From Nitrospirota bacterium (lineage in GTDB: Bacteria; Nitrospirota; Thermodesulfovibrionia; Thermodesulfovibrionales; JdFR-86): DNA of 50,644 nt. The notes beneath the pieces were generated by a model that was given only the letters and a program-made list of their open reading frames with translations, was not told the DNA's origin and did no database searches. Shown here one piece after another: positions 19,568-47,541 of this stretch. Within the stretch, counting starts at the first letter, position 1; each line of letters opens with the position of its first letter. Location: assembly GCA_037385265.1 (NCBI GenBank), contig JARRNG010000007.1, positions 1-50,644 on the forward strand, written 5' to 3'. The position numbers were made by a program, and so were the translations under genes.

Positions 19568-20556
19568 TTCTGGGCGAAGGCCTCCGTGATCTTCCCCTCG
19601 ATCTCCTTTAGGGTCTCGGGGTTCTGCTTCAGGTAGTCCTTGGCGTTCTCCCTGCCCTGGCCGATCCGGGTGCCGTCATAGCTGTACCAGGCGCCGGCCT
19701 TATCTATGACCTTGCGGTCCACGCCGAGGTCCACGATCTCGCCCGCCCGCGAGATGCCCTCGTTGTAGTAGATATCGAACTCGGCCTGCCTGAACGGCGG
19801 GGAGAGCTTGTTCTTGACGACCTTCACCCGGACGCGGCCGCCGATCATCTGCTGGCCGTCCTTGATACTGTCTATCCTCCGGATGTCGAGCCTCAGGGAA
19901 GAGTAGAATTTCAGGGCGTTTCCGCCGGTGGTGGTCTCGGGGCTTCCGAACATCACCCCTATCTTGTGCCTTATCTGGTTTATGAAGACCACGGTGGTGT
20001 GGGACTTCGATATGGCCGCCGTGAGCTTCCTCAGCGCCTGGCTCATGAGCCTGGCCTGAAGCCCCGGAAGCGAGTCGCCCATGTCGCCCTCTATCTCTGC
20101 CTTGGGCACCAGGGCGGCCACCGAGTCTATAACTATGATGTCCACCGCCCCGCTCCTGACCAGGGACTCTGCCACCTCGAGGGCCTGCTCCCCCGTGTCG
20201 GGCTGCGACACGAGGAGGTCGTCGAGCACCACGCCGAGCTTCTCGGCGTAGGCCACGTCCAGGGCGTGCTCGGCGTCTATGAAGGCGGCCACTCCGCCCG
20301 CCTTCTGGGCCTGACCCACGGCGCTCAGGGCCAAAGTGGTCTTTCCGGAGGATTCCGGGCCGTATATCTCGACCACCCTGCCCCTGGGGAAGCCGCCGAT
20401 TCCGGTGGCTATATCCAGTGACAGCGAGCCGCTGGATATGGCCTGCACCTTCACCCGCGTCTCCTCGTCCCCCAGGCGCATTATGGCGCCCTTGCCGAAG
20501 TTCCTCTCTATCTGCGCAATGGCCATCTCCAGGGCCTTCGTCTTGTCTTTATCCAT
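19564..20556 (-). CDS. recA: Recombinase RecA
   Basis: [43 protein letters not shown]. Confidence 0.97.
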
Positions 20557-20593
20557 CTTCCCTCCGTTTACGCCATGTCAGGACGCGAATTAT

Positions 20594-20610
20594 TGTTAAT
20601 TAATATAACA
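20594..20610. promoter_or_regulatory. Palindrome upstream of recA (possible operator)
   Basis: TGTTA-ATTAATA-TAACA lies about 40-55 nt upstream of the recA ATG. It does not match any LexA box consensus I can recall exactly. Confidence 0.2.
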
Positions 20611-20746
20611 TAAAGGCAAACGTATCCGCAGAGGGTTTTCCAAGGCGCAGGGAGAGACGCCATGCGGGCGAATATCCCGTATTTAAATGGAAAATAGATT
20701 TCCCGCCCGTCGGGCGACCATAGGCCGAAGGCAGTTGCAGGAGGCT

Positions 20747-21316
20747 TCACGCCCCACCGGCAAGGGGCGCGCCATAGAGCCTGGAGTACTCGGCCCCTCC
20801 GGGCTTCAGGGTGCTCTTCATCAGGGCCACCTCGGTCACGTCGAATTGTCCGAAGTCCTCCTCGGCGAGTTCGTCCAGCTCCCTCAGGAGGAAATCCCTC
20901 CGCTTCTGCGATTTAAGCCGTCCGATCGTGAGGTGAGCGCTGAAAGGCCTCTTTTCGGCCTCGAAGCCAAGGGGCTCCAGGGCCAGTTCGATGTCCCTCT
21001 GGAGGTCGACGAGCCTGTCGCTGTCGTAGGTCCCGACCCATACCACCCGGGGCTGCCTCCTATTGGGAAACACCCCCGCCCCCCTGAAGCCGAGCCTGAA
21101 ACCGGCGTAGGGCCTCACGGCTTGGGCCAGGGCTTCCCTTAACTCCGGCAGCATCTCCTCGGGCACGCTTCCAAAAAACTTGAGCGTCAGGTGGAAGTTC
21201 TCGGCCCTCACCCATCGGGCGTCGGCGCCGCTTTTCCTGACCCGCTCCGTGCTGCTCGCTATGGCCTCCTTCAGGGCCTCCGGGAGCTCCACGGCCACGA
21301 AGCATCTGATATTCAT
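20747..21316 (-). CDS. thpR: RNA 2',3'-cyclic phosphodiesterase (2H family, LigT/ThpR)
   Basis: It has two HxT/S motifs: HLTLKF and HLTIGR. 189 aa. Confidence 0.85.
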   Translation of the reverse strand: MNIRCFVAVELPEALKEAIASSTERVRKSGADARWVRAENFHLTLKFFGSVPEEMLPELREALAQAVRPYAGFRLGFRGAGVFPNRRQPRVVWVGTYDSDRLVDLQRDIELALEPLGFEAEKRPFSAHLTIGRLKSQKRRDFLLRELDELAEEDFGQFDVTEVALMKSTLKPGGAEYSRLYGAPLAGGA

Positions 21317-21798
21317 GTCGACAGTGCCTCGAGGAGAAACCTGAGGGCCGTGTTTGAGGCTGCGTGCTTTATCTCGTCCCTTTCGCCCTCGAATTTAAGC
21401 CTCCTGGAGGCCACCACCTCGCCCCTGAAGGCGGCGGCCACGAAAACGACACCCACTTCCCGGTCCTCTATCGTGTCGGGGCCGAGCACTCCGGTGATGC
21501 CGAGGCCCACCTCCACGCCGGCCCTCTCGCAGACGGCTAGGGCCATGGCCCTGGCCGTCTCCTCGCTCACGGTGCCGTGGATGTTTATGAAGGACTCGGC
21601 GAGGCCGAGGATTCGGCTCTTGGCGTGCCTGGAATAGCAGACGATTGAGGAGTCGAAGCAGCCCGAGGAGCCGGGCATGAGGGTGAGGGCATGGGCCACG
21701 AGCCCTCCCGTGCAGGACTCGGCAATCGCCACCTTGAGGCCCCTCTCCTTGAGGGCCTCGTGCACCTCTCTGATCGCCTCTAAATCAAGGTCCGCCAT
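21313..21798 (-). CDS. pncC: CinA C-terminal domain protein / nicotinamide-nucleotide amidohydrolase (PncC-like)
   Basis: The start is MADLDLEAIREVHEALKERGLKVAIAESCTGGLVAHALT (AESCTGG motif). The first roughly 159 codons of the 320-aa track ORF are an out-of-frame overlap of pgpA. Confidence 0.8.
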   Translation of the reverse strand: MADLDLEAIREVHEALKERGLKVAIAESCTGGLVAHALTLMPGSSGCFDSSIVCYSRHAKSRILGLAESFINIHGTVSEETARAMALAVCERAGVEVGLGITGVLGPDTIEDREVGVVFVAAAFRGEVVASRRLKFEGERDEIKHAASNTALRFLLEALST

Positions 21799-22232
21799 AA
21801 CTGAAGCACCACGTTCGTGAAGACTCCAGCGACCACGTCGTCGGCCATCACGCCTGCCCCGCCCGAAAGGAACTGCAACTGCCTTATGGGAGGTGGCTTC
21901 ATTATATCGAAAATCCTGAAAAGTGCAAAAGACGCAAGGAAATACCCTGTGGTCTGGGGCAGAAACGCCATGGCGAAGAAGTAGCCGGCCACCTCGTCTA
22001 TCACGATGTGGCCCGAGTCCTTTGCCCCGAGGGCCTCCTCCGCCTCGCCCGCCGCCACGACCCCCAGGGCGGTCACGGCCAGGACGAGGACGGCGAAAAA
22101 CGGCCCCGACGGCCTGGCCAGCAGCAGAAAGAGCATCGCCGCGAGGGTGCCCGCCGTGCCCGGGGCCTTCGGCACGAAGCCCACCGGCCCCAGGGTAGCG
22201 ATGTTCTTCCAGGCAGCCCTCGAAAGCCTCAA
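21780..22232 (-). CDS. pgpA: Phosphatidylglycerophosphatase A
   Basis: IATLGPVGFVPKAPGTAGTLAA...DSGHIVIDEVAGY...FRIFDIMKPPPI. 150 aa. Confidence 0.85.
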   Translation of the reverse strand: MRLSRAAWKNIATLGPVGFVPKAPGTAGTLAAMLFLLLARPSGPFFAVLVLAVTALGVVAAGEAEEALGAKDSGHIVIDEVAGYFFAMAFLPQTTGYFLASFALFRIFDIMKPPPIRQLQFLSGGAGVMADDVVAGVFTNVVLQLWRTLI

Positions 22233-22243
22233 GGCCGTCCCGC

Positions 22244-22663
22244 CTAAGTCTCCACGACCTCGAAGCTCCAGCCAACCTTGGCCGAACCTTCGAAAGTGCC
22301 TTTCACCGAGCAGTACCTCTCCATGGAGAGTTTAATTGCCTTCTCCACGGCCTCCCTGCCGAGGCCCTTGCCCTTTACCGTGAATTTGATCTTCACGTCG
22401 GTGAACCTCCTCGGCTCCTTCTCGGCCATGTCCCCCTCGAGGGAAATCTCTATGTCCTCCACCTCCTGCTTTTTCTTCCTGAGGACATAGGCCACGTCCA
22501 TGCCGGTGCATCCCCCCAGCCCCAGGAGGAGGAGCTCCATTGGCCTTGGCCCCTGGTCGGTTCCTCCGAACTTGGGGCTGCTGTCCATGACAACGGCGTG
22601 GCCCGATTCGGCCACGCCAATAAACCTCAGGCCATCCACGTATTTGACGTTTGCCTTTATCAT
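22244..22663 (-). CDS. OsmC-family (peroxiredoxin-like) protein
   Basis: 139 aa. GPRPMELLLLGLGGCTGMDV and ERYCSV carry the two conserved Cys. Confidence 0.8.
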   Translation of the reverse strand: MIKANVKYVDGLRFIGVAESGHAVVMDSSPKFGGTDQGPRPMELLLLGLGGCTGMDVAYVLRKKKQEVEDIEISLEGDMAEKEPRRFTDVKIKFTVKGKGLGREAVEKAIKLSMERYCSVKGTFEGSAKVGWSFEVVET

Positions 22664-23490
22664 TTCTTCTTCCCTTTCCCGGTTCTTGGGGTCTTCTTCC
22701 CGCCCGAAGACTTGAGGTCGAGGAACATCTCGTGAGCCTTCTTGGGGCTCAGGCCCTCGTGAACCACGGCCCTCACGGCCTGTATCATGGCCACGGGGTC
22801 CTCGCTCTGGAAGATGTTGCGCCCCATGTCCACGCCCACGGCTCCGCCATTTATGGCCTTGGCGGTCAGCTCGAGCGCGTCGGGCTCGGGCAGCTTCTTT
22901 CCCCCCGCCATGACGATGGGCACCGGACAGGTGCCGGTGACCCGCTCGAAGTCCTCGCAGTAGTAGGTCTTCACGAAGTGCGCCCCCAGCTCGGCGGCTA
23001 TCCTGCAGGAGAGGGCCAGGTAGCGGGCGTCCTTTCCGAGCTCCTTTCCCACGGCGGTAACGGCCAGGACCGGCATCCCGTAGCGCTGCCCCTGGTCCAC
23101 GAGCCTCGAGAGGTTAACGAGCGTCCGGTGCTGGTGCTCGGCGCCCACGTAAATGGAGAGCGCCACGCCCGAGACGTTGAGCCTAAGGGCGTCCTCCATG
23201 GACATAGTGATGTCCTCGTCGGAGAGCTCCCCCAGGATGCTGTTTCCGCCGGAGACGCGCACCACAATCGGCGTGTCCACCGCCAAGGCGGGGTCCACGC
23301 AGGTCCTGAGCACTCCCCTGGCTGGCATCAGCGCGTCGGCGTAGGGCAGAAGCGGCTTGATGGTCTTTTCCGCGTCCTCGAGGCCCGTGGTGGGGCCCAG
23401 GAAATACCCGTGGTCCACGGCCAGCATCACCGACCTTCCGGTCTCGGGCCTGATGACCCTCGAAAGCCTGTTCTTCAATCCCCAATCCAT
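22660..23490 (-). CDS. Class I aldolase of the DhnA/LsrF type (3-hydroxy-5-phosphonooxypentane-2,4-dione thiolase-like), with a Lys-rich tail
   Basis: It is close by eye to E. coli LsrF as I recall it: DWG.K.RLSR...TG.SVMLA.DHGYF.GPTTGLE, ...VKTYY (Schiff-base Lys), CPVPIVMAGGKKLPE, GVDMGRNIFQS..PVAM. The C-terminus is GGKKTPRTGKGKKK. Confidence 0.8.
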   Translation of the reverse strand: MDWGLKNRLSRVIRPETGRSVMLAVDHGYFLGPTTGLEDAEKTIKPLLPYADALMPARGVLRTCVDPALAVDTPIVVRVSGGNSILGELSDEDITMSMEDALRLNVSGVALSIYVGAEHQHRTLVNLSRLVDQGQRYGMPVLAVTAVGKELGKDARYLALSCRIAAELGAHFVKTYYCEDFERVTGTCPVPIVMAGGKKLPEPDALELTAKAINGGAVGVDMGRNIFQSEDPVAMIQAVRAVVHEGLSPKKAHEMFLDLKSSGGKKTPRTGKGKKK

Positions 23491-23530
23491 GTCGTTATCC
23501 TCCTTCGCATATCTTTTGTTTCCGAAGTTC

Positions 23531-24556
23531 TCATTTCTGAGGCTCTATTATAACCTTCAGGGACTCCCCGGCCTCGGCCACCAACCGGAAACCCTCTTGC
23601 GCCCGGGCCAGGGGGAACCTGTGGGTGATCATGCCCTCGACCCCGACCCTTCCAGACCTTATAAGCTCCATGGCCTCGACGTGCTCAACGGGGTTGGCCG
23701 CGTAGGACGAGGTAAGCGTTATCTCGTTCCGCCAGAAAAGCCTGTTTACCGGAAGCGGCACCGCGATATCCTCGCGGGTGGGGGCGAAAAAGAGCACCGA
23801 GCCCCCGCGGTCCACCGCCATCAGGGCCTGGGAGATGGCCGATTCCGCCCCGGAGGTGAGTATCACCACGTCCGCTCCCCGGCCACCGTTGAGTTTCCTG
23901 AATCCCTCGGGGACATCCGAGTCCGCCCGGAGGGACGCGTGGGCGCCGAGCTCCCTGGCCCTGGCCAGCCTCCAGTCGTTTATGTCTGTCGCCACCACCA
24001 CCCCGGCGCCGAGGGCGCGGGCAAGCGAAATGTGCAGGACGCCCGAGATGCCGCTTCCTATCACCAGGACGCTGTCGCCCTCCTTGAGGCCGGCGGCCCT
24101 CTGCCCCCTGAGCACGCAGGCGAGGGGCTCTATGAAAGTGCCCTCTTCGAAGGAGACCTCATCGGGACGCGCATAGGTCCCCTTTTCTACGTTAATTGAG
24201 GGAAGAAGTACGTACTCCGCGAATCCCCCGGGATGGAAGTTGGTAGTCCTCAGGGTGTCGCAGACGGTGCCGTGCCCCCTCAGGCAATAATGGCACGCCC
24301 CGCAGGGCACGAGGTGCGAGGCGCTCACGCGCTGGCCCACCCGGAGAGGGGCGCCCTCGCCGACCTCCACCACCTCGCCGGCTATCTCGTGGCCGAGGAC
24401 GAGTGGCACCTTGTGGCGGCGGTACCACTCCATCACGTCGCTTCCGCATATGCCGCTTGCCATCACGCGGACGACCGCCTCTCCCTTTCCGGCGGCGGGC
24501 GTGGGCATCTCCTCGAGCCTGACGTCGTTGTTGGCGTAGTACATCGCAACCCGCAT
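23531..24556 (-). CDS. Zinc-dependent medium-chain alcohol/polyol dehydrogenase
   Basis: GICGSDV, GHEIAGEVVEVG, structural-zinc CGACHYC and a Rossmann GSGISG motif. Confidence 0.85.
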   Translation of the reverse strand: MRVAMYYANNDVRLEEMPTPAAGKGEAVVRVMASGICGSDVMEWYRRHKVPLVLGHEIAGEVVEVGEGAPLRVGQRVSASHLVPCGACHYCLRGHGTVCDTLRTTNFHPGGFAEYVLLPSINVEKGTYARPDEVSFEEGTFIEPLACVLRGQRAAGLKEGDSVLVIGSGISGVLHISLARALGAGVVVATDINDWRLARARELGAHASLRADSDVPEGFRKLNGGRGADVVILTSGAESAISQALMAVDRGGSVLFFAPTREDIAVPLPVNRLFWRNEITLTSSYAANPVEHVEAMELIRSGRVGVEGMITHRFPLARAQEGFRLVAEAGESLKVIIEPQK

Positions 24557-24713
24557 GGGAAACCCTCCGGGGAATCGGGAATGTGAAATGAAAATTTAAC
24601 CCCAAAAGAGCGAGAAGTCAACAAAACGCCGCCCGAAGGACAGCTAAACATGCCCCCGGCCCGCCATCCAAACCGGGCTCAAACCCTTTCCTCCGGAAGG
24701 CAATCCCGAACCC

Positions 24714-24741
24714 TTGACAATCGCCCCCATTGTGCTAATCT
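24714..24741 (+). promoter_or_regulatory. Sigma-70-type promoter for the nitroreductase-tpx-rhodanese string
   Basis: TTGACA (24714-24719), a 16-nt spacer, then TAATCT (24736-24741). It lies about 30 nt upstream of ATG 24772. Confidence 0.4.
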
Positions 24742-24771
24742 GCGGATATACCGACAATTTAGAGAGACGAC

Positions 24772-25404
24772 ATGGACGTAATCGAGACCATCAGAAACAG
24801 GCGCTCAATAAACTTCTTCGAGCCGGGCAGAGAGGTGCCCGACGAAAAGCTCAGGGAACTCCTGGAGGTCGCCAATCTCTCGCCCTCGTCATTCAACACC
24901 CAGCCCTGGAAGGTGGTGGTCGTGAAGGACCCCGAAAGGAAGAAGGTCCTTAGGGATTGCGCCTTCGGACAGCCCAAGGCGGAGGAGTGCTCGGTGATGC
25001 TCATCATGGTGGCCGACCCGGACTTCCTGGAGGAGAACTTCGAAAGGGTGCTCGACAGCTGGGTTGAACTGGGCTATATGACCGAGGACAAGCGCAACGG
25101 AAACCGGGAACTGGCCAAGAACCTCTACGGCGCCCCCGACAGCCTCAAGCGGAAGTTCACGGCCGTGAAGAACACGGCCCTCTTCGCCATGACCCTCATG
25201 CTCGCGGCCAAGGGCCTGGGGCTCGAGACTCACCCCATGGACGGCTTCGACGAGGAGTGCATAAAAAAGGAATTCGGCATTCCCGGGGACAAGGTGATAC
25301 CCATGCTCGTGGCGGTGGGATACCTCAAGGAGGGGGTGAAGCTCCTTCCGAGGGCCTTCAGGCGCTCCCAGGAGGAGTTCGTGAAGCACGAAAGGTACGA
25401 GTAG
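24772..25404 (+). CDS. Nitroreductase-family protein
   Basis: TIRNRRSINFFEP...SPSSFNTQPWKVVVV is the classic nitroreductase N-terminus. 210 aa. Confidence 0.85.
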   Translation: MDVIETIRNRRSINFFEPGREVPDEKLRELLEVANLSPSSFNTQPWKVVVVKDPERKKVLRDCAFGQPKAEECSVMLIMVADPDFLEENFERVLDSWVELGYMTEDKRNGNRELAKNLYGAPDSLKRKFTAVKNTALFAMTLMLAAKGLGLETHPMDGFDEECIKKEFGIPGDKVIPMLVAVGYLKEGVKLLPRAFRRSQEEFVKHERYE

Positions 25405-25427
25405 CGCATATCCCGGAGGGAAATGAA

Positions 25428-25943
25428 ATGGCCAGAACGGTAACCATGAAGGGCCAGCCGCTGACTCTGGCGGGCCAGGCACTCAAGGTGGGCGACAAGG
25501 CCCCGGACTTCAGGGTTCTTGACAGGGAGCTTAACGAGGTGGGCCTAGAGGATTGCGGGGGGAAGGTCAGGCTACTGAGCGTTACGCCTTCCCTGGACAC
25601 CCCAGTGTGCGACATGCAGGCCCGGAGGTTCAACGAGGAGGCCGCTAAGCTCGAAGACGTCTCGGTCTTCAACATCAGCATGGACCTCCCCTTCGCCATC
25701 GACAGGTTCTGCACCGCCGCCGGCATCGACAGGGTCCAGGCCCTCTCGGACCACAGGGAAGCATCCTTCGGCCGGGCCTACGGCGTGCTCATCGAGGAGC
25801 TTAGGCTGCTTGCGCGCTCGGTCTTCGTGATCGACAGGGACGACACCATACGCTACATCGAGATTGTGCCGGAGATAACGGACCACCCCGATTACGAAAA
25901 GGCCCTGGAGGCCGTCCGCGGGCTGGTCGCCAAGGAGGTGTGA
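25428..25943 (+). CDS. tpx: Thiol peroxidase (atypical 2-Cys peroxiredoxin)
   Basis: The start is MARTVTMKGQPLTLAGQALKVGDKAPDF, preceded by GGAGGG. The active site is SVTPSLDTPVCD. The track ORF start at 25257 is a 5' extension into the nitroreductase gene. Confidence 0.9.
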   Translation: MARTVTMKGQPLTLAGQALKVGDKAPDFRVLDRELNEVGLEDCGGKVRLLSVTPSLDTPVCDMQARRFNEEAAKLEDVSVFNISMDLPFAIDRFCTAAGIDRVQALSDHREASFGRAYGVLIEELRLLARSVFVIDRDDTIRYIEIVPEITDHPDYEKALEAVRGLVAKEV

Positions 25944-25944
25944 G

Positions 25945-26337
25945 ATGATCCGAAAGATTCTGTTTTCGATAGCCGTGGTGGCCCTCGTCTGCTCGGTGGC
26001 CGCGGCGGCGGACATCAACTGTATGTCCAAGGACGAGCTCCGCAGCGCCCTCGACGACCCCGGCCTCACTGTAATCGACGTGCGCCAGGGCGGCGATTGG
26101 GATGGAAGCGACACGAAAATCAAGGGCGCGGTGCGGCAGGACCCCGGAGAGGTGGAAAAGTGGGCCGGAGGATACGCCAAGGACGCCCGTCTGGTCCTTT
26201 ACTGAGCCTGACCGCGCCAGGCGACGAGTGTCCGTGTGGCACGCGAGCTCAAGGGGATGGGATACACCAACGTATGGGTGCTCCGGGGTGGATGGCACGA
26301 GTGGGAAGACGAGGGCTACCCGGTGGAGACCAAGTAG
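25945..26337 (+). CDS. Secreted single-domain rhodanese-like sulfurtransferase with two in-frame TGA codons (26203-26205 and 26209-26211); candidate selenoprotein (U-A-U), or otherwise a pseudogene
   Basis: The track ORF ends ...KDARLVLY at TGA 26205. The same frame continues TGA GCC TGA CCG... and gives U-A-U-PRQATSVRVARELKGMGYTNVWVLRGGWHEWEDEGYPVETK, ending at TAG 26335-26337. That is the missing half of the rhodanese fold. The signal peptide is MIRKILFSIAVVALVCSVAAAA. Confidence 0.55.
26212..26246 (+). ncRNA. Candidate SECIS-like hairpin immediately 3' of the second TGA
   Basis: CGCGCCA (26213-26219) pairs with TGGC(AC)GCG (26237-26245), leaving a 2-nt bulge. The upper stem is GAC/GUC around a GAGU loop (26226-26229). 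I folded it by eye only. Confidence 0.3.
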
Positions 26338-26356
26338 GGGGAGAAACAGGAATGCC

Positions 26357-26467
26357 ATGGAGAAGCAGGGGTTTTCTCTAAAGATAAGCTTTCTGAGGCC
26401 GGGGTGGTGGCTGGTGCACCTGGCAGGCATTAGCGCGGTCTACGCCGTCGGCCACTTTCTCTGGTGA
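26357..26467 (+). CDS. Mini membrane protein (36 aa), paralogue 1
   Basis: MEKQGFSLKISFLRPGWWLVHLAGISAVYAVGHFLW. One TM segment. It shares RPGWW..H....(Y/F)..GH with the next gene. Confidence 0.45.
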   Translation: MEKQGFSLKISFLRPGWWLVHLAGISAVYAVGHFLW

Positions 26468-26482
26468 CGGCAGGCGTCCCCG

Positions 26483-26590
26483 ATGCTGACAAGACATTTC
26501 ATGCGCTACAAGCCGGGCTGGTGGGTCCTCCACGCCCTCGCGATAGGGCTGACCTTCTACCTCGGCCACATAGTGAAGTTTTATTTCTGA
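26483..26590 (+). CDS. Mini membrane protein (35 aa), paralogue 2
   Basis: My translation (below the track size cut-off): MLTRHFMRYKPGWWVLHALAIGLTFYLGHIVKFYF. It is in the same frame as paralogue 1 and starts 15 nt after that gene's TGA. Confidence 0.45.
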   Translation: MLTRHFMRYKPGWWVLHALAIGLTFYLGHIVKFYF

Positions 26591-26592
26591 GG

Positions 26593-26994
26593 ATGGGAAA
26601 GAAGAGCCTCTATACGGCGCTCGTCATTCTGGGCGTGGCGGCCCTGATGCTGCACGTGAGGATACACTTTTTCATGGTGCCGCTTCCGGACAATCCTGAC
26701 GTGAGGGTCTTCAGGCCGGCCCAGTTCCTTTCGAACCTCTTCCCCCTGCTGGACGTGACGGTCGTGAGCGTCCTCTTCCTCTCCAGGAGGACCGCGACCT
26801 ACGGCTACCTCCTGAACGGCCTCATCGTGATATACGGCACCGTCTTCATGACCCACTTCAGCATCGCCCAGCTTGGCGCGCAGGGGGCGCCGCCCCAGGA
26901 CTGGGTGCTCAAGTCCACCCTTCCGGACATAGGCATCGCCTGGGCCGATTTCTTCGTGGGCAAGGCCCTTTATGATTTGTATCAGAGAACCTGA
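26593..26994 (+). CDS. Hypothetical integral membrane protein (about 4 TM segments)
   Basis: The start is [22 protein letters not shown], 2 nt after the previous stop. I recognised no family. Confidence 0.55.
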
Positions 26995-27047
26995 CGCCCG
27001 CCTGTTGTAGTATTTATATAAGAACGCTAAACGAGGGAGGCACGGAG

Positions 27048-27269
27048 ATGGAAGAGAAAGTAAGGGAAGTAATCGAGAAGATAAGGCCCTTTCTCAAGGC
27101 CGACGGCGGCGACGTAGAGATAGTCGAGGTGACCGGGGACGGCACGGTGAAGGTCAGGCTCACCGGGGCCTGCGGGCATTGCCCCATGTCCACGATGACG
27201 CTCAAGATGGGCATCGAAAAGAAGCTCAAGGAATCGATCCCCGAGGTGAAGGAGGTCGTAGCGGTTTAA
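27048..27269 (+). CDS. NifU C-terminal-domain (Nfu-type) Fe-S cluster carrier
   Basis: 73 aa. [17 protein letters not shown]...[18 protein letters not shown] carries the CxxC motif. Confidence 0.9.
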
Positions 27270-27312
27270 ACACCCGCTAATTCCGGCCCCGACCGGAACA
27301 GGGAGGTCAAGG

Positions 27313-27516
27313 ATGACGAAGGTCAAGACTTTTGGGATTGAGATAAGGCCGATGAAGACCATGAAGGAGCTCTCGCAGCTCGACGAGACGGTCAACAAAT
27401 TCATAGCCGAAAACAACGTCGACAAGGTCGTATCGGTCTCCGACACGGCCACGACGGATGACAAGGGCGAGACCATCGGGCTGATAAGGGTCCTGTGCTA
27501 CAAGGAAAAGCATTAA
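27313..27516 (+). CDS. Hypothetical small protein (67 aa)
   Basis: GGGAGG RBS. MTKVKTFGIEIRPMKTMKELSQLDETVNKFIAENNVDKVVSVSD...IGLIRVLCYKEKH. The strand-helix-strand pattern vaguely recalls Cse60-like proteins, but the similarity is weak. Confidence 0.55.
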   Translation: MTKVKTFGIEIRPMKTMKELSQLDETVNKFIAENNVDKVVSVSDTATTDDKGETIGLIRVLCYKEKH

Positions 27517-27523
27517 GGGCGCG

Positions 27524-27775
27524 GTGGCCGACGTCAAGGAAATCAGGGAGCTAGCGAAGAGGTTCACGCCGGAGGAGATAGAAAGCTGCATAACTGTGCA
27601 GCTCGATACGGGGAAGAACGAATGCTTGAGAAACCCTTCCGCCGAGTATATAATTAACGAGCTTTCCAAGGCCAAGTTCGTCAAAGATCTCATGGCCGAG
27701 GGCATGGAGATCGCCGATGCCCTCAGGGAGCTGGCAAGGCGCATGAGAACCATTCAGAACAGGGAGGAGCGATGA
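27524..27775 (+). CDS. Hypothetical small helical protein (83 aa)
   Basis: The GTG start lies 8 nt after the previous stop. I recognised no family. Confidence 0.5.
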   Translation: MADVKEIRELAKRFTPEEIESCITVQLDTGKNECLRNPSAEYIINELSKAKFVKDLMAEGMEIADALRELARRMRTIQNREER

Positions 27776-28194
27776 ACCTCAAGGAGCACGAAAGCCACAT
27801 CAAGGACCTTCTCAAGGAATACTGTCTTTTCCTGGTCGAGCCGGTGTACGTGGACAACGTGGCCGAATGGAGCAAGCGAAACGGCTTCGACGAGCCGGAC
27901 AAGGAAAAGCCCCTGAAGCTCGTGGTCAGCGAGGAAAAGGGCTGCAAGCTCGTGATGAACGAAGAGGTCCCCGACAAGGTTATCGAGGAGCGGCTCAAGG
28001 CCATGTCCGTGAGGGCCGCCCTCCAGAACGTGGCCGAGGACAGGGAGGCCAGGCTCAACAGCGAAAAGAAGAAGTTGGCCTATCTCTTCCTCAGCGAATA
28101 CGGCTCGCACATGCCCGAGCACGAGGACGACGAACTCCTCATCGACAACTGGGCCTTTGGCGAGATGGAGAGGCTGGGCTACTTCACCGAGTGA
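27772..28194 (+). CDS. Hypothetical acidic protein (140 aa)
   Basis: It has an ATGA overlap with the previous gene. I recognised no family. Confidence 0.55.
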   Translation: MNLKEHESHIKDLLKEYCLFLVEPVYVDNVAEWSKRNGFDEPDKEKPLKLVVSEEKGCKLVMNEEVPDKVIEERLKAMSVRAALQNVAEDREARLNSEKKKLAYLFLSEYGSHMPEHEDDELLIDNWAFGEMERLGYFTE

Positions 28195-28212
28195 AGCCCT
28201 GCCCGTAGGGCC

Positions 28213-29352
28213 ATGCGCGCGGCGATTTACCCACTGATAATTTTACTGTCCTGCTCCCTTTCGGGGTCCCCCGTGATGGGCGGAAAGCCCCAGGCCGTGG
28301 AAGACGTCCCGGTGCCCCAGGGAGACGGCGTGAGGGTGGAGGACTGGGTGACGGGGCTCGACATCCCCTGGTCGCTTGTCTTCCTGCCCGGCGGGCGCGC
28401 CCTGGTGAGCCAGCGGCGCGGCACGATACGCCTTATCGAGGACGGCAAGCTCTCGGATAAGCCCTACGCGGTCGTCGAGGACGTGACCGCCATTGGCGAG
28501 GGGGGCCTCATGGGGCTGGCCCTCCACCCCAAGTTCCCGGACGAGCCCTTCGTCTACGCCATGTACACCTATACCGGGGGCTCCGGCCTCAGGAACAGGG
28601 TGGTGAGGTTCAGGCACAACGGGGCCACCGGGGCCTTCGACCGGGTGATAGTGGACGGCATCCCCGGGGGGACTTTCCATGACGGGGGGAGAATTGCCTT
28701 CGGCCCCGACGGCATGCTCTATATAACCACCGGCGAGACCACCCGGCCCGAGCTCGCCCAGGACCTCGAAAGCCTCGGCGGAAAGATCCTGAGAGTCACG
28801 GCCGAGGGAGACATACCGCCCGACAACCCCTTCCCCGGCTCGCCGGTATACTCCTACGGCCACCGCAACCCCCAGGGCATCGCCTGGCGGCCCGGCACGG
28901 GAGAGCTCTTCGAGTCGGAGCACGGCCCCTCGGGAGAGTTCGGCGCCCACGCAAACGACGAGATAAACATCATCAAAAAGGGGGGCAACTACGGCTGGCC
29001 CAAGGTCATCGGCGCGCCCTCTAAGAAGCCCTACATAGACCCTATCGTGGTCTGGAAGAAGGCCACGCCGCCCTCGGGCATAGCATTCCCAAGCGGCAGG
29101 CTACTTAAGAGCCTCGGGGGAAACCTCCTCGTGGCGACCCTGGGGAGCCAGGCCCTGGTGAGAATCGTCCTCGGCGAGGACGGCGAGGTAGTCCGCATAG
29201 AGCGCTGGTTCGAGGGCCGCTACGGCAGGCTCCGTGACGTCGTCGAAGGCCCCGACGGGGCGCTCTACGTCCTGACGAACAATACCGACGGAAGGGGCAG
29301 GCCCAGGGACGGCGACGACAGGATACTGAGGATACTTCCCGCCGGGGACTAA
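28213..29352 (+). CDS. PQQ-dependent soluble sugar (aldose/sorbosone) dehydrogenase, beta-propeller, secreted
   Basis: It has a signal peptide. HDGGRIAFGPDGMLYITTGE, YSYGHRNPQGIAW, EHGPSG...DEINII..GGNYGWP. Confidence 0.85.
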   Translation: MRAAIYPLIILLSCSLSGSPVMGGKPQAVEDVPVPQGDGVRVEDWVTGLDIPWSLVFLPGGRALVSQRRGTIRLIEDGKLSDKPYAVVEDVTAIGEGGLMGLALHPKFPDEPFVYAMYTYTGGSGLRNRVVRFRHNGATGAFDRVIVDGIPGGTFHDGGRIAFGPDGMLYITTGETTRPELAQDLESLGGKILRVTAEGDIPPDNPFPGSPVYSYGHRNPQGIAWRPGTGELFESEHGPSGEFGAHANDEINIIKKGGNYGWPKVIGAPSKKPYIDPIVVWKKATPPSGIAFPSGRLLKSLGGNLLVATLGSQALVRIVLGEDGEVVRIERWFEGRYGRLRDVVEGPDGALYVLTNNTDGRGRPRDGDDRILRILPAGD

Positions 29353-29849
29353 CCCACCTTCTTCATTATCTCCCGCATGAAGGCCGGAAGGTCCGAGGGC
29401 TGGCGGGAGGTGATAAGATTCCCGTCCACCACGACTTCCCTGTCCTCGTACTTCGCTCCCGCCTCCTTTAGCTCCTTTCCACCCGAGCGGTAGCTCGTGG
29501 ACTTCCGGCCCTTCATCACTCCGGCCTTGATGAGAACCTGGGGGCCGTGGCATATGGACGCCACGGGCTTGTCCTTGTCGAAGAAGGCCTTCGCGATGCC
29601 GGTTACCCGCTTGTCGTTCCTTATGGAGGCCGGGGCCTTACCGCCCGGGACGACAAGGATGTCGTAGTCGTCGGGATTGACGGAGTCGAGGGATATAGTA
29701 GAACTGGCCTCGTAGCCGTGCTTCCCCTTGAACTTCTCCATGGGCGAGGCTATGTCCACCTTGAAGCCCTCCTCAAGGAGGCGGAAGTACGGCACGAAGA
29801 GCTCGAGGTCCTCGAAACCCTCCCCGCTTATGATGAGCGCCCTTTTCAT
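29349..29849 (-). CDS. DJ-1/PfpI-family protein (PfpI-type intracellular protease / glyoxalase class)
   Basis: 166 aa. Nucleophile elbow PVASICHGPQVL, then LVVPGG. Confidence 0.85.
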   Translation of the reverse strand: MKRALIISGEGFEDLELFVPYFRLLEEGFKVDIASPMEKFKGKHGYEASSTISLDSVNPDDYDILVVPGGKAPASIRNDKRVTGIAKAFFDKDKPVASICHGPQVLIKAGVMKGRKSTSYRSGGKELKEAGAKYEDREVVVDGNLITSRQPSDLPAFMREIMKKVG

Positions 29850-29947
29850 ATCCCGACGATATCTCCTGGGGCAGGGGTTGTCAAGGGGAGCCGCGGCAAG
29901 AGATGAAGAGCTTTGAATACATGAGAAAAGGGGGTATAATTGGGTGC

Positions 29948-30433
29948 ATGAAGGCGATTGTCCTGGCGCTTGCCCTCCTCGTTCTTTCCGGGTGCGCCCA
30001 CGTGGTGTCGCCGGAGCTGAGGGCCGAGGCGGAGCCTGTCAACGTGGAGGACCTCTTCGGCCATCCCGAGCTATACAGGGGCAAGACCGTCATACTCGGC
30101 GGGGTCCTCATCGAGGCGACAAACACGGAAAAGGGAACGACGCTGGAGATCCTCGAAAAACCCCTCGACTACAGGGGCAGGCCCCAGGACACCGACAGGA
30201 GTCGGGGCCGGTTCATAGTGAAGCATGGCGAACGCCTCGACAAGTTAATCTTCAAGCCGGGAAGAGAGCTGACCGTCGTGGGAGAGGTCCTGGGCATTGA
30301 GCGCAGGCCCCTCGGCGAGATGGAATACCCTTACCTCGTGCTCAGGTCCAGGGCTATCTACATACACAAGGAATCAGCCAGGCAGCGTCGGATTCCCGTA
30401 CACTTCGGCTTCGGCGTCTTCAAGACGTTCTAA
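29948..30433 (+). CDS. slp: Slp-family outer-membrane lipoprotein
   Basis: Lipobox LLVLSGC. YRGKTVILGGVLIEATNTEKGTTLEILEKPLDYRGRPQDTDRSRGRF is typical of Slp. The start was moved to ATG 29948. Confidence 0.75.
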   Translation: MKAIVLALALLVLSGCAHVVSPELRAEAEPVNVEDLFGHPELYRGKTVILGGVLIEATNTEKGTTLEILEKPLDYRGRPQDTDRSRGRFIVKHGERLDKLIFKPGRELTVVGEVLGIERRPLGEMEYPYLVLRSRAIYIHKESARQRRIPVHFGFGVFKTF

Positions 30434-30500
30434 ATGATGCCCGCCGCCCCTTCCACTATTCCGCGGAGCGTTCCACCGCGGCGGAGTTCACGGACAGCCC

Positions 30501-31412
30501 ATGGCCTTTAGCGAAAGCGCATTCAAGGGATGTCTCGCCGGCCTTGCCCTGGGTGACGCCCTGGGCGCCCCCTTCGAGGGCCTAATGCCGCCCCTGGAGT
30601 CGGGGGTGGAGGCCTTTTTCGAGCACCTCCCGGAAGTCCTCCGCTACACGGACGACACCGAGATGGCAATCGGCGTGGCCGAGTCGCTCGCGGAGAGGGG
30701 ATGCCTGGACCTCGATCACGTGGCCCGGAGGTTCGCCGAGAACTTCGACCCCTCGAGGGGGTACGGGCCGGGGACCGTATCGGTCCTCGGGATGATAAGG
30801 AGGGGCGCCTCGTGGCGAGACGCCAACAGGGCCGTCTTCCCTGAGGGCTCCTTCGGAAACGGAGCGGCCATGCGTGCTGCTCCGCTGGGGCTTTTCTACG
30901 CGGGCTCGCCCGAGGACCTCAGGGAGGCGACCTTCGCGGCAAGCTCAATCACCCACGACCACCCCCTTGCCAAGGAGGGGGCGCTTCTAATAGCCGGGGC
31001 GGTCTCGGCGATACTCGGGGGGAAGAATAAGACCGAGACGCTCGACGAGGTCTCGCGCCTCGTTGGGGCCGACGCCTACAGGCAGAAGCTCCGCTTCATA
31101 AAGGAGTTCATGGGCCACCCCATATCCCCGGGCACGGTCATCGAGCGCCTGGGCCACGGGGTCCTGGCCGAGGAATCAGCCCCCACGGCCCTTTACGCCT
31201 ATCTGAAAGAGGGGCGGAACTACCTCAAGTGCATTTGGTACTGCATCTCCCTGGGCGGCGACACCGACACCATCTGCGCCATGGCCGGGGCGCTCTCGGG
31301 CGCCAAGGTGGGGCTCAAGGGCCTTCCGCAGGAGATGCTCGAAAGGCTCGAAGACCGCGACAGAATCCTCTCCCTGGCTGAGGAACTCTTCAGGGCGGCG
31401 GCCCGCAAATAG
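30501..31412 (+). CDS. ADP-ribosylglycohydrolase-family protein
   Basis: GLALGDALGAPFEG, YTDDTEMA, GNGAAMR, GGDTDTICAMAGAL. Confidence 0.85.
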   Translation: MAFSESAFKGCLAGLALGDALGAPFEGLMPPLESGVEAFFEHLPEVLRYTDDTEMAIGVAESLAERGCLDLDHVARRFAENFDPSRGYGPGTVSVLGMIRRGASWRDANRAVFPEGSFGNGAAMRAAPLGLFYAGSPEDLREATFAASSITHDHPLAKEGALLIAGAVSAILGGKNKTETLDEVSRLVGADAYRQKLRFIKEFMGHPISPGTVIERLGHGVLAEESAPTALYAYLKEGRNYLKCIWYCISLGGDTDTICAMAGALSGAKVGLKGLPQEMLERLEDRDRILSLAEELFRAAARK

Positions 31413-31413
31413 C

Positions 31414-32052
31414 TCAGCCTCCCGCAAGTAGCCTCACAGAGTTCCAGAGGAATACGCCTCCGAAGAAGACCAGCACCACCCCGGAGACAAGGCTCACCTT
31501 TCTATAGAATCCCTGGCCCAACCTCTTGGCTCCCCTGTTAGACGCGGCGGCGAGAAAACCCAGCCAGAGGAGGTCGCAGAGCCAGTGCACGACCGCAAAG
31601 AGCACCACCCCCAGGACGCCGAAGGCCGTGGCCGATAACACGAGGCCCAGGCCGACCGTGGCCCACCAGAGGAGGAAATAGGGGTTTCCCACGCTGAGAA
31701 GCACGCCCGACACAACCGAGGAACCACGCCCGGCGTCCTCTTCGGCCATGTCCGCGGCTCCCGGGGACCTGAGCATCCCCAAGCCCAGGTAAAATAGATA
31801 CGCCCCGCCGGACACGCCCACGAAAATCCTAGTCCAATCGTGCTTGAACAAGGCCCCCGCCCCCAGCGCAAGGATGGCGATAAGGGGGAACTCCACCAGG
31901 CCGTGGCCGATGGAGATGTAGATGCCAGAGAGGCCCGAGCGCCCTCCCCGCTCCACCACGGCCGCCGTCATCGGTCCGGGCGAAAGCACTCCCGAAAGCG
32001 ATATGAGGACCGCCGACAACAGAAATAGGCCGAGGCTCTGCTCCATATTCAT
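31414..32052 (-). CDS. LysE-family amino-acid exporter
   Basis: 212 aa, 5-6 TM segments. N-terminal SPGPMTA and NPYFLLWW motifs. Confidence 0.75.
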   Translation of the reverse strand: MNMEQSLGLFLLSAVLISLSGVLSPGPMTAAVVERGGRSGLSGIYISIGHGLVEFPLIAILALGAGALFKHDWTRIFVGVSGGAYLFYLGLGMLRSPGAADMAEEDAGRGSSVVSGVLLSVGNPYFLLWWATVGLGLVLSATAFGVLGVVLFAVVHWLCDLLWLGFLAAASNRGAKRLGQGFYRKVSLVSGVVLVFFGGVFLWNSVRLLAGG

Positions 32053-33882: not shown

Positions 33883-34568
33883 AGGAGGAAAAGGGGAACA
33901 TACTTTTTTGCGGAGTGGGCGGACAGGGCGTGGTGCTCGCCAGCGAAGTGGCGGCCAGAGCCCTCCTTGGGGCCGGCTTCGACGTGAAGAAGAGCGAGGT
34001 CCACGGCATGGCACGCCGTGGCGGCTCCGTCGTCGCACACGTGCGCTTCGGCCGGAAGGTCCACTCGCCTGTCATATCGGCAGGAGAGGCGGACACCGTC
34101 ATCGCCTTCGAGCTACTCGAATCCCTGAGGTACGCCGGGCACTTCAGCCCTGGGGGCCTCGTTATCGTCAACACCCAGAGGATTCCGCCCCTTTCGGTCA
34201 GCTCGGGGCGCGAGAAGTACCCCACGGGGATTCTCTCGATCCTCCGGAGGCGAAGGATGTCCGTCTGGCCTCTGGATGCGCTGGGCGTCTCCCTTGAGCT
34301 TGGCGAGGCGAGGGTGCTGGGCATGGTGATGGCGGGGGCGCTGTCCGAAATCCTTCCCGTGTCGTGGAAGGTCCTCGCCGACGTCGCCGCCTCCCTGGTT
34401 CCCCGGCGCTACAGGGAAGCGAACCTGGCGGCCCTCGAAAGAGGCAGGGGGCTTGCCTCCGGGCTGGTGTCGAAGCGCGAGAACTTCGCCACAGAAGAAA
34501 TGCCGGCGTTACCGCCCAGAGGGGAGATGCGGGAAATACGTGGTCAGCTTCAGGATCTCTGGCGGTGA
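33879..34568 (+). CDS. iorB: Indolepyruvate:ferredoxin oxidoreductase beta subunit
   Basis: GTG 33879 overlaps the iorA TGA (GTGA). VKEEKGNILFCGVGGQGVVLAS. Confidence 0.8.
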   Translation: MKEEKGNILFCGVGGQGVVLASEVAARALLGAGFDVKKSEVHGMARRGGSVVAHVRFGRKVHSPVISAGEADTVIAFELLESLRYAGHFSPGGLVIVNTQRIPPLSVSSGREKYPTGILSILRRRRMSVWPLDALGVSLELGEARVLGMVMAGALSEILPVSWKVLADVAASLVPRRYREANLAALERGRGLASGLVSKRENFATEEMPALPPRGEMREIRGQLQDLWR

Positions 34569-39008: not shown

Positions 39009-39023
39009 CTACGGGAGGTGCCC

Positions 39024-39707: not shown

Positions 39708-39713
39708 GAGGCA

Positions 39714-47430: not shown

Positions 47431-47541
47431 GTATCGACCTTCTCAGTAGATAGCTACACAGTCGATAGGTGGCTATTTAGGCCTCTAAGCCAGCTTTTCA
47501 ACCTTAGACATTTCACCCCCCGCATCTCTGCAGTGGGAGGA

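What the first reader, a model, noticed from the sequence alone, without database searches (positions are those of the whole stretch)
25945..26337. Secreted rhodanese with two in-frame TGA codons at a Cys-x-Cys active-site loop: candidate U-x-U selenoprotein
The ORF track ends this gene at ...ARLVLY-TGA (26203-26205). The same frame then reads GCC-TGA-CCG CGC CAG GCG ACG AGT GTC CGT... This encodes PRQATSVRVARELKGMGYTNVWVLRGGWHEWEDEGYPVETK and ends at TAG 26335-26337. That sequence is the missing C-terminal half of a single-domain rhodanese. The active-site loop therefore reads Y-U-A-U-P-x-x-A-T-S. As I recall, one rhodanese subfamily has Y-C-x-C-P-N-E-A-T/S-S-A at this position, so both TGAs would replace Cys codons (TGY to TGA). 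Two random nonsense mutations hitting both Cys positions while the downstream frame stays intact is unlikely. TGA is a normal stop in this window (tpx, pilT, iorA), so genome-wide recoding does not explain it. A hairpin follows the second TGA. The neighbours are thiol and redox genes (nitroreductase, tpx ending 1 nt upstream, nfu). Rhodanese-type selenoproteins have been reported from metagenome surveys. I do not know of a described bacterial example with two adjacent Sec residues separated by one residue.
Basis: partly seen in the sequence, partly recalled or inferred. Interest (0 to 1): 0.85.

Follow-up and report, generated by a model that had tools for sequence, protein, structure and literature searches.

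The report
Secreted rhodanese with two selenocysteine codons
This is a real gene for a small exported rhodanese enzyme whose active site is written with two in-frame TGA (selenocysteine) codons one residue apart; it belongs to an already catalogued selenoprotein family, and the double-TGA form was reported from a metagenome in 2007, so it is a good find but not a new kind of thing.

Summary
Window 25945-26337 (+) is one reading frame, ...LVLY-TGA-GCC-TGA-PRQATS..., ending at TAG 26335-26337. Read through, it is a 130-aa signal-peptide rhodanese.

It scores 162 bits (cut-off 115) against NCBIfam NF041203 'rhodanese_LYCAU, rhodanese-related (seleno)protein'. The family norm is Cys-Ala-Sec (TGY-GCC-TGA). 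The second TGA is the catalytic position. The first replaces the family's conserved Cys at -2.

A 5-bp hairpin with loop N-G-[G/U]-N-U lies 16 nt after the second TGA (26228-26242). It is conserved across 138 distinct family sequences, with compensatory changes at synonymous sites. It meets the published bacterial SECIS constraints I checked for both TGAs.

TGA-x-TGA is not an accident. It recurs in 10 of 138 DNA-verified relatives, in at least four sequence neighbourhoods. One is a Nitrospirota MAG collinear with the window at 88.5% nucleotide identity, with both TGAs kept and no indels.

TGA ends 16 of 43 other genes here, so there is no genome-wide recoding.

Not testable: selA/B/C/D are absent from the 50-kb window, and there is no read or proteomic data.

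Zhang & Gladyshev (2007) already described a rhodanese 'UxU' form. Verdict: new member of a known kind, moderate interest.

The parts
25945..26337 (+). Complete gene for a 130-aa rhodanese-related selenoprotein precursor (read-through ORF, ATG to TAG)
   Evidence: Searches give the sequence and frame. Pfam Rhodanese, 4.8e-13. NCBIfam NF041203 rhodanese_LYCAU, 162 bits against a cut-off of 115.
25932..25939 (+). Shine-Dalgarno-like AAGGAGGT, 5 nt upstream of the ATG, lying inside the end of tpx
   Evidence: Read directly from the sequence. Its function is inferred.
25945..26010 (+). Predicted Sec-type signal peptide (MIRKILFSIAVVALVCSVAAAA | D), with the A-x-A cleavage motif shared by the family
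   Evidence: Sequence inspection. The same basic N-terminus, hydrophobic core and A-x-A motif are seen in homologues (alignment A1). No signal-peptide predictor was available, so this is inferred.
26029..26310 (+). Rhodanese domain (residues 29-122), spanning both TGA codons
26203..26205 (+). First in-frame TGA (residue 87), at position -2 from the catalytic residue. This position is Cys (TGY) in about 93% of family members.
   Evidence: P0040 has Cys here (LYCACPGQATS).
26209..26211 (+). Second in-frame TGA (residue 89), the catalytic position of the rhodanese C-x5-[S/T/R] loop. This is the family's canonical Sec.
   Evidence: It aligns with the catalytic Cys of PDB 6mxv (CGGGFRS) and with the Cys of P0003 and P0040. 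It is TGA in all 138 distinct family sequences examined, a set collected by requiring a stop codon at this position.
26225..26245 (+). SECIS-like hairpin. The core stem is 26228-26232 (GUGUC) paired with 26238-26242 (GGCAC). The loop is 26233-26237 (CGUGU). Two further pairs, 26225/26 with 26244/45, follow a 1x1 mismatch.
   Evidence: 99.2% of cells paired, 21 compensatory cells, 0 of 500 shuffles as good. UA 100, CG 25, UG 12, CA 0 at synonymous third positions.: -9.3 kcal/mol for the extended form. The loop is 21 nt after UGA2 and 27 nt after UGA1, against the 16-37 nt allowed by the bSECIS model (PMC13188914).
26335..26337 (+). True stop codon (TAG), after the family-conserved C-terminus ...GYPVETK
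25428..25943 (+). Upstream thiol peroxidase-like gene (Redoxin/AhpC-TSA), probably co-transcribed. Its stop is 1 nt before the rhodanese ATG.
   Evidence: No terminator-like site between the genes on the + strand.

Best explanation
This is a functional gene for a periplasmic, single-domain rhodanese of the curated selenoprotein family NF041203 ('LYCAU'). Both UGA codons are most likely decoded as selenocysteine.

The mRNA carries one bacterial SECIS hairpin, 16 nt downstream of the second UGA. SelB·GTP·Sec-tRNASec bound to that hairpin would serve UGA-89, the catalytic residue that heads the U-P-R-Q-A-T-S loop. Because the loop is also within the permitted distance (27 nt) of UGA-87, the same hairpin would serve that codon too. 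UGA-87 arose by a single TGY>TGA change of the family's conserved Cys at -2.

The mature protein (about 108 aa) would then carry a U-A-U pair in place of the usual C-A-U. A plausible mechanism is that the catalytic selenolate attacks a sulfur, selenium or other electrophilic substrate, and the -2 residue resolves the adduct. That would give an intramolecular diselenide here, and a selenenylsulfide in CxU forms.

Shown: the reading frame, family membership, the SECIS structure and its covariation, and recurrence and conservation of the double TGA.

Inferred: Sec rather than another residue at UGA-87, export to the periplasm, and the redox or transfer chemistry.
For: - **Family membership.** NF041203 scores 162 bits against a cut-off of 115. 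The UxU relatives L002, L054 and L076 also pass, at 156-183 bits.
- **Cys at both columns.** P0040 reads LYCACPGQATS. The -2 codon is TGY in 128 of 138 distinct family sequences. The second TGA aligns with the catalytic Cys of PDB 6mxv.
- **SECIS.** The consensus hairpin is found by RNAalifold. It shows 99.2% pairing and 21 compensatory cells, and 0 of 500 shuffles reach this; slid controls give 23-62% pairing. Covariation falls on synonymous third positions of the Ser and Ala codons, Fisher p about 1e-18, not corrected for phylogeny. The loop N-G-[G/U]-N-U, the 5-bp stem and the 21/27-nt spacing fit those parts of the published bSECIS model.
- **Recurrence.** TGA-NNN-TGA with an intact downstream frame is found in L002, L024, L054, L076 and L080 and in L131, L138, L141, L148 and L149. 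In addition, 25 of 150 50%-identity cluster representatives end exactly at ...LY.
- **Separate neighbourhoods.** The nearest relatives of UxU members are CxU members, which gives at least four separate sequence neighbourhoods.
- **Conservation in a close relative.** The Nitrospirota MAG locus L002 is collinear with window 18808-31800 at 88.5% nucleotide identity. It keeps both TGAs, with no indels. Synonymous/non-synonymous changes are 12/16 in the N-terminal part and 6/8 after the TGAs.
- **No recoding.** TGA terminates 16 of 43 other genes in the window.
- **Literature.** A UxU rhodanese form is reported in PMC1976440.
Against: - No selA, selB, selD or tRNA-Sec lies in the 50-kb window.
- In the window itself the conserved hairpin is weak: one U·G pair, -3.4 kcal/mol bare and -9.3 kcal/mol extended.
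- ViennaRNA prefers a different local fold, and the 86-nt region is not unusually stable (z = -0.79).
- UxU members show no change in hairpin spacing. UGA-87 therefore sits 6 nt further from the SECIS than the position for which the element is conserved. From my own recall, E. coli fdhF tolerates little change in this spacing.
- Nothing here distinguishes Sec from near-cognate Cys or Trp insertion at UGA-87.
- There is no expression, read-level or proteomic evidence.
Confidence: 0.72

Rival explanations
1. Only the second UGA is decoded as Sec. The first UGA is read through by a near-cognate tRNA (Cys or Trp) or by low-level suppression. The protein would then be effectively C/W-A-U, made at low yield, and the extra UGA would act mainly as a brake or selenium-independent leak.
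For: The SECIS spacing is conserved relative to the second UGA, not the first, and does not shift in UxU members. The family norm at -2 is Cys. One full-length homologue carries TGG/Trp in the motif (P0084, CAW), so TGA/TGG interchange does occur in the family.
Against: A stop codon that lowers yield without benefit should be purged. Instead it recurs in at least four sequence neighbourhoods and is kept between genomes 11.5% diverged in DNA. The first UGA lies within the 16-37 nt window of the bSECIS model. Other bacterial selenoprotein families with two closely spaced Sec (UxxU, UxxxxU) are listed in PMC13188914.
Confidence: 0.15
2. The first TGA is a genuine stop. In these lineages the gene would be a decaying pseudogene, or would produce only an 86-aa N-terminal fragment.
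For: Gene callers end the protein at LVLY (P0001, P0002, P0004). No Sec machinery is visible in the window.
Against: The 42 codons downstream are intact in all 10 relatives and end at the family-conserved ...YP.E.K stop. There are no indels between the window and L002, and both halves have similar synonymous/non-synonymous ratios. The SECIS hairpin is retained. An 86-aa fragment lacks the catalytic loop and half the rhodanese fold.
Confidence: 0.06
3. One or both TGAs are sequencing or assembly errors of TGC/TGT.
For: A single base separates TGA from TGY, and MAG assemblies do contain errors.
Against: The same TGA-NNN-TGA is present in ten independently assembled genomes and metagenome contigs from different projects, including the close relative L002. 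The second TGA is universal in the family.
Confidence: 0.02
4. TGA is reassigned genome-wide, for example to Trp or Gly, in this organism.
For: None specific.
Against: TGA is the terminal codon of 16 of 43 Pfam-supported genes in the window, including tpx immediately upstream.
Confidence: 0.01

Closest known systems
[quoted passage not shown]
   Same: The window protein scores above the curated cut-off (162 against 115 bits). It has the same length of about 130 aa and the same signal peptide. It shares the L-Y-x-A-U-P-x-x-[AG]-T-S loop, the Sec at the catalytic position and the SECIS hairpin at the same 16-nt spacing.
   Different: The family's conserved Cys two residues before the Sec is here a second TGA (LY-U-A-U). 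The reviews list the family with one Sec. The host is a Nitrospirota bacterium, whereas most members found are Thermodesulfobacteriota ('delta') MAGs.
UxU form of rhodanese-related sulfurtransferase from the Olavius algarvensis deltaproteobacterial symbiont metagenome (Zhang & Gladyshev 2007, PMC1976440)
   Same: It is a rhodanese-related sulfurtransferase in which 'a second Sec evolved ... resulting in a UxU motif'. This is the same motif and the same kind of protein, and it too was predicted computationally.
   Different: The source lineage and habitat differ. The figure with the sequences is not held, so I could not confirm residue by residue that it is the NF041203 subfamily. No experimental follow-up was found.
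TsoB, a rhodanese/DsbD fusion-like selenoprotein (NF045694, UxxxxU, 2 Sec)
   Same: It is a rhodanese-domain selenoprotein with two closely spaced Sec residues. It gives a weak HMM match to the window protein (31 bits).
   Different: TsoB is a 572-aa fusion protein with different Sec spacing. The window protein scores far below its cut-off of 805 bits, so it is not a member.
Sud, the periplasmic polysulfide-sulfur transferase of Wolinella succinogenes (PDB 1qxn, deposited as 'sulfide dehydrogenase')
   Same: It is a small periplasmic single-domain rhodanese with one catalytic chalcogen residue that carries sulfur to a respiratory reductase. It matches the window protein at E = 3e-4. It is a functional analogy worth testing.
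   Different: It uses Cys, not Sec, and has no -2 partner residue. The sequence similarity is only distant. No polysulfide reductase genes lie beside the window gene.
PDB 6mxv, a rhodanese-like family protein (tandem domains)
   Same: It is the closest solved structure (4.3e-15). Its catalytic Cys (C-G-G-G-F-R-S) aligns with the second TGA.
   Different: It is a two-domain Cys protein and has Phe at the position aligned with the first TGA (-2).

Membership tests
NCBIfam NF041203 rhodanese_LYCAU (seleno)protein | Whole-protein HMM score at or above the curated cut-off (115 bits) | tested here: met
   162 bits, E = 4.8e-48, profile positions 4-126 of 126. The TGAs were modelled as Cys.
NCBIfam NF041203 rhodanese_LYCAU (seleno)protein | Sec (TGA) at the last position of the L-Y-C-A-U motif, the catalytic residue | tested here: met
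   TGA at 26209-26211. The same column is TGA in the 138 distinct family sequences, which were collected by requiring a stop there. It aligns with the catalytic Cys of 6mxv.
NCBIfam NF041203 rhodanese_LYCAU (seleno)protein | Cys at the third position of the L-Y-C-A-U motif | tested here: not met
   The codon is TGA (26203-26205) rather than TGY. The same holds in 10 of 138 relatives. This is a variant within the family, not an exclusion, because UxU relatives also pass the HMM cut-off.
Bacterial selenoprotein gene (SelB/SECIS-dependent UGA decoding) | In-frame TGA aligned with Cys in homologues | tested here: met
   First TGA: TGY in 128 of 138 relatives, and Cys in P0040. Second TGA: Cys in P0040, P0003 and 6mxv.
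Bacterial selenoprotein gene (SelB/SECIS-dependent UGA decoding) | [quoted passage not shown] | tested here: met
   The stem is 5 bp and the loop is 5 nt (CGUGU). The loop starts 21 nt after UGA2 and 27 nt after UGA1. The extended form is -9.3 kcal/mol. Family-wide covariation supports the stem. Caveat: the bare 5-bp hairpin in the window is only -3.4 kcal/mol.
Bacterial selenoprotein gene (SelB/SECIS-dependent UGA decoding) | Genome encodes selA, selB, selC (tRNA-Sec) and selD | not testable with these tools
   None is present in the 50.6-kb window (ARAGORN; Rfam; Pfam scans).
Bacterial selenoprotein gene (SelB/SECIS-dependent UGA decoding) | Selenium physically incorporated at the UGA positions | not testable with these tools
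   This needs 75Se labelling or MS/MS.
Rhodanese homology domain (Pfam PF00581), catalytically active type | Domain match, plus a chalcogen residue heading a six-residue active-site loop (C-x5-[R/S/T]) | tested here: met
   PF00581 at 49.9 bits against a cut-off of 22.2, residues 29-122. The loop is U-P-R-Q-A-T-S.
Sud-type periplasmic polysulfide-sulfur transferase | Close sequence relationship, and genetic linkage to polysulfide reductase (psr) | tested here: not met
   The similarity to 1qxn is only distant (E = 3e-4). No psr-like genes were found in the window. This is a functional analogy only.

The most novel reading that the evidence does not exclude
Both UGAs are decoded as Sec from a single SECIS hairpin, giving a periplasmic U-x-U (diselenide-capable) catalytic centre. 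This state has arisen repeatedly from C-x-U by single TGY>TGA changes, because any Cys codon that falls within reach of an existing SECIS is one mutation away from Sec. The family would then be a natural series (CxC, CxU, UxU) for two questions. One is the spacing tolerance of bacterial SECIS elements. The other is the chemistry of selenenylsulfide versus diselenide in an exported enzyme. In one lineage (L024) the domain is fused to an octahaem cytochrome, which points to a respiratory or detoxifying redox role.
Probability: 0.55. Interest if true: 0.5.

Novelty: new member of a known kind. Interest (0 to 1): 0.38.

Why it matters
The gene shows that automated annotation cuts this protein to an 86-aa fragment. 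The true product is a 130-aa exported selenoenzyme.

The family (NF041203) is widespread in anaerobic sediment and soil bacteria, and I found no experimental characterisation of it. I also found no experimental demonstration that one bacterial SECIS can serve two UGA codons only 6 nt apart.

The UxU members, about 7% of the family, together with their CxU and CxC relatives offer a ready-made comparative system for these questions. Conceptually, however, both the family and the UxU form are already in the literature.

Tried and rejected
- **Single-protein scan of genome contigs.** It found no relatives. A 22-sequence alignment was too diverse to derive search patterns. A 6-sequence alignment worked.
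- **DNA for the closest truncated homologues.** The look-up of encoding contigs returned gene maps only, with no DNA, for P0002 and P0004. The window's own fragment P0001 is not on record.
- **Rfam and ARAGORN on the window.** No RNA family and no tRNA or tRNA-Sec were found.
- **Other selenoprotein genes in the window.** I scanned for in-frame TGA with coding-like GC3 on both sides. Nothing convincing came up, and GC3 does not discriminate frames in this 59% GC DNA. One hit, at 26465, is just the junction of two tandem small genes.
- **Gene neighbourhood as a clue to function.** The tpx/nitroreductase/NifU context is found only in L002 (plus tpx in L056) and on the P0002 and P0004 contigs. 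It is not conserved across the family. The commonest neighbours elsewhere are an APC-type permease (19 loci), DUF547 and a cyclophilin, with no consistent partner. I therefore rejected the 'redox operon' argument as family-level evidence.
- **Single-sequence folding of the window.** The 86-nt region is not significantly stable (z = -0.79), and the MFE fold differs from the family-conserved hairpin. I relied on comparative evidence instead.
- **MccSep.** I considered a link to the multihaem selenoenzyme MccSep (PMC13510729). It is a different family, with five haems and a GUPTPNR motif.
- **Structure prediction.** I did not run it. The Cys-substituted read-through sequence is not an allowed input, and the tool's output would not give side-chain distances.

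Full report
**1. Observation**

- An ATG at 25945 sits 1 nt after the TGA stop of the upstream gene and is preceded by AAGGAGGT.
- The frame reads ...DARLVLY, TGA (26203-26205), GCC, TGA (26209-26211), then PRQATSVRVARELKGMGYTNVWVLRGGWHEWEDEGYPVETK, and ends at TAG 26335-26337.
- With Cys placed at both TGAs, the 130-aa product matches Pfam Rhodanese over residues 29-122, a stretch that spans both stop codons (4.8e-13).
- The neighbours are a nitroreductase (24772-25404), a Redoxin/AhpC-TSA thiol peroxidase (25428-25943) and a NifU-like protein (27048-27269).
- TGA is an ordinary stop here. It ends 16 of 43 Pfam-supported genes in the window.

**2. What family it is**

NCBIfam gives a specific answer. 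The protein scores 162 bits against NF041203, 'rhodanese_LYCAU, rhodanese-related (seleno)protein', an equivalog model with a cut-off of 115. The model's name states the family motif: Leu-Tyr-Cys-Ala-Sec.

DNA of relatives confirms this.
- In 80 loci from GTDB species-representative genomes and 80 from JGI metagenomes, the motif is almost always TAY-TGY-GCC-TGA.
- Among 138 distinct sequences, 128 are C-x-U and 10 are U-x-U.

The second TGA of the window is therefore the family's normal selenocysteine. It is also the catalytic position. Counting back from the conserved VRVA, it aligns with the catalytic Cys of the nearest solved rhodanese (6mxv, C-G-G-G-F-R-S) and with the Cys of the full-length homologue P0003.

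The first TGA replaces the family's conserved Cys two residues upstream. A full-length all-Cys homologue, P0040, reads LYCACPGQATS.

**3. Is the first TGA real and functional?**

Four lines of evidence say yes.
- **It recurs.** TGA-NNN-TGA is present in L002, L024, L054, L076 and L080 (genomes) and in L131, L138, L141, L148 and L149 (metagenomes). In every case the 40-odd downstream codons are intact and end at the family's ...YP.E.K stop.
- **An independent count agrees.** A phmmer search with the 86-aa N-terminal fragment against 1.84 billion cluster representatives gave 780 hits. Of the top 150, 120 end ...YC[A/S/T...], meaning the gene caller stopped at the Sec. Another 25 end exactly at ...LY, meaning a stop at the -2 position. 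Five are full length.
- **It is scattered.** Each UxU protein's closest relatives are CxU proteins. This gives at least four separate neighbourhoods: window+L002, L024, L054/L080 and L076. Repeated TGY<>TGA switching fits this better than one accident.
- **It is conserved in a close relative.** L002, a Nitrospirota MAG, is collinear with window 18808-31800 at 88.5% nucleotide identity. Its rhodanese gene has the same 393-nt length, both TGAs and no indels. Synonymous/non-synonymous differences are 12/16 before the TGAs and 6/8 after them. The part after the 'stops' is therefore evolving like the part before.

Pseudogene and assembly-error explanations are very unlikely.

**4. SECIS**

Aligning the 60 nt that start at the first motif codon for 50 family members gives a gap-free alignment.
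- RNAalifold finds a single consensus hairpin with stem GUGCC/GGCAC and loop N-G-[G/U]-N-U.
- Pair counts show 99.2% of cells paired and 21 cells with changes on both sides. None of 500 shuffles reaches this, and slid controls give 23-62% pairing.
- The covarying pair lies on synonymous third positions: Ser AGU/AGC opposite Ala GCA/GCG. Over 138 distinct sequences the counts are UA 100, CG 25, UG 12 and CA 0 (Fisher p about 1e-18, not corrected for phylogeny). Protein conservation alone does not explain this.
- In the window the element is GUGUC-CGUGU-GGCAC at 26228-26242, extendable to 26225-26245 (-9.3 kcal/mol).

The published bacterial SECIS model requires four things (PMC13188914):
- a 4-16 bp stem;
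- 16-37 nt between the UGA and the loop;
- an MFE at or below -7.5 kcal/mol.

Here the loop begins 21 nt after the second UGA and 27 nt after the first, so both codons fall inside the permitted range.

Caveats:
- The bare hairpin in the window has a U·G pair and is weak (-3.4 kcal/mol).
- The local MFE fold is a different structure.
- The single-sequence z-score is unremarkable.
- UxU members show no shift in spacing that would indicate adaptation to the first UGA.

**5. What could not be tested**

The window has no tRNA genes, no Rfam hits and no selA, selB or selD among about 45 scanned ORFs. There are no read or proteomic data. Sec decoding is therefore inferred from comparative evidence only.

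**6. Mechanism**

*Shown.* The gene is one reading frame for an NF041203 rhodanese with a conserved SECIS.

*Inferred, translation.* SelB·GTP·Sec-tRNASec recruited by the single hairpin decodes UGA-89. After rebinding, or from a second SelB complex, it also decodes UGA-87.

*Inferred, location.* The N-terminus (MIRK, a hydrophobic core, then AAA|D) looks like a Sec-type signal peptide and is shared by the family. The mature protein of about 108 aa would be periplasmic.

*Inferred, chemistry.* In the rhodanese fold the catalytic residue ends a beta-strand and heads the six-residue loop. From general knowledge of the fold, a residue at -2 on that strand points to the same face. The family's C-x-U could therefore cycle through a selenenylsulfide, and U-x-U through a diselenide, with the -2 residue resolving an adduct formed on the catalytic selenolate.

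*Substrate.* It is unknown. Three weak leads exist.
- There is distant similarity to the periplasmic polysulfide-sulfur transferase Sud (1qxn, E = 3e-4).
- The second-best specific NCBIfam relative is the chromate-resistance rhodanese ChrE, below its cut-off.
- In L024 a UxU rhodanese domain is fused in frame to an octahaem cytochrome c.

The gene neighbourhood gives no family-wide partner.

**7. Comparison with what is known**

- The CxU family is curated as NF041203. [quoted passage not shown]
- The double-Sec form is also in print. [quoted passage not shown]
- Other bacterial families with two nearby Sec are tabulated: UxxU Prx-like, UxxU metal-binding, FTR and TsoB UxxxxU.
- A full-text search for 'UxU' with selenocysteine found no other paper on bacterial UxU proteins.

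The variant is therefore known but barely followed up. In the papers I searched and read, I saw no experimental work on it.

**8. Verdict**

- **Observation:** confirmed.
- **Interpretation:** supported in its biology. It needs correcting on the family motif (C-x-U, not C-x-C) and on novelty.
- **Classification:** a new (Nitrospirota) member of a known selenoprotein family, carrying its already reported UxU variant.
- **Interest:** moderate. The value lies in correcting the annotation, and in the family as a test bed for one SECIS serving two UGAs and for diselenide chemistry, not in a new category.

Noticed in passing
L024:2-1640 (Desulfatiglandaceae MAG JBAPTR010000116, start of contig) and L024:1865-2245: A UxU rhodanese domain (LLY-TGA-GCA-TGA-PAEATS) continues without a stop into a multihaem cytochrome c of about 400 aa. 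That part has eight CxxCH motifs, matches Pfam Multi-haem_cyto at 7.5e-25 and has weak similarity to hydrazine/hydroxylamine-oxidoreductase-type octahaem proteins. A canonical stand-alone CxU paralogue lies 0.3 kb downstream. A selenoprotein rhodanese-cytochrome fusion may point to the family's redox role.
   Followed up: partly
window 26357-26467, 26483-26590 and 26593-26994 (+): Directly after the rhodanese gene lie two tandem small paralogous genes of 36 and 35 aa. Both share the motif PGWW-x-x-H-x(10-11)-GH and are probably single-pass membrane peptides. A 133-aa hydrophobic protein with no Pfam match follows. The same 37/35/133-aa series follows the rhodanese on the contig of relative P0004, and the 35/133-aa pair on that of P0002, and it is present in L002.
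   Followed up: partly
window ~41300-50400: Third-position GC of the ORFs drops here (0.25-0.61, against about 0.8 elsewhere). The segment holds two paralogous arylsulfotransferase (ASST) genes (41295-42758, 43123-44538), a sulfotransferase (44668-46185), several ORFs with no Pfam match and an IS110-family transposase (49198-50406). It looks like a horizontally acquired island.
   Followed up: no
window 39018-41045 (+): A dihaem cytochrome c (FixO/NorB-cytochrome-like) is followed by a COX1-family haem-copper oxidase subunit. This could be a cbb3-type oxidase or a nitric-oxide-reductase-like pair, in an organism whose window otherwise looks anaerobic (indolepyruvate/pyruvate:ferredoxin oxidoreductase at 32098-34568).
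   Followed up: no
P0084 and P0138 (cluster representatives): Two full-length family members keep the -2 Cys but have Trp (LYCAW, TGG being one base from TGA) or Ser (LYCAS) at the catalytic Sec position. Either the catalytic role can move to the -2 Cys, or these are inactive or mis-called.
   Followed up: no
L003-L081, about 1.6 kb upstream of the rhodanese gene: In 19 of the Thermodesulfobacteriota loci an APC-family permease of about 436 aa (Pfam AA_permease_2, 2.9e-24) sits on the same strand about 1.6 kb upstream of the CxU rhodanese. DUF547 or a secreted cyclophilin often follows downstream. The window lacks this arrangement.
   Followed up: partly
window 18808-31800 versus L002 (JASFVA010000016.1): The window is collinear over 13 kb, at 88.5% nucleotide identity, with a contig of a Nitrospirota MAG (isolate D1105M12metaG_Bin_593). 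This places the window's organism in Nitrospirota, probably in the same genus-level group.
   Followed up: yes
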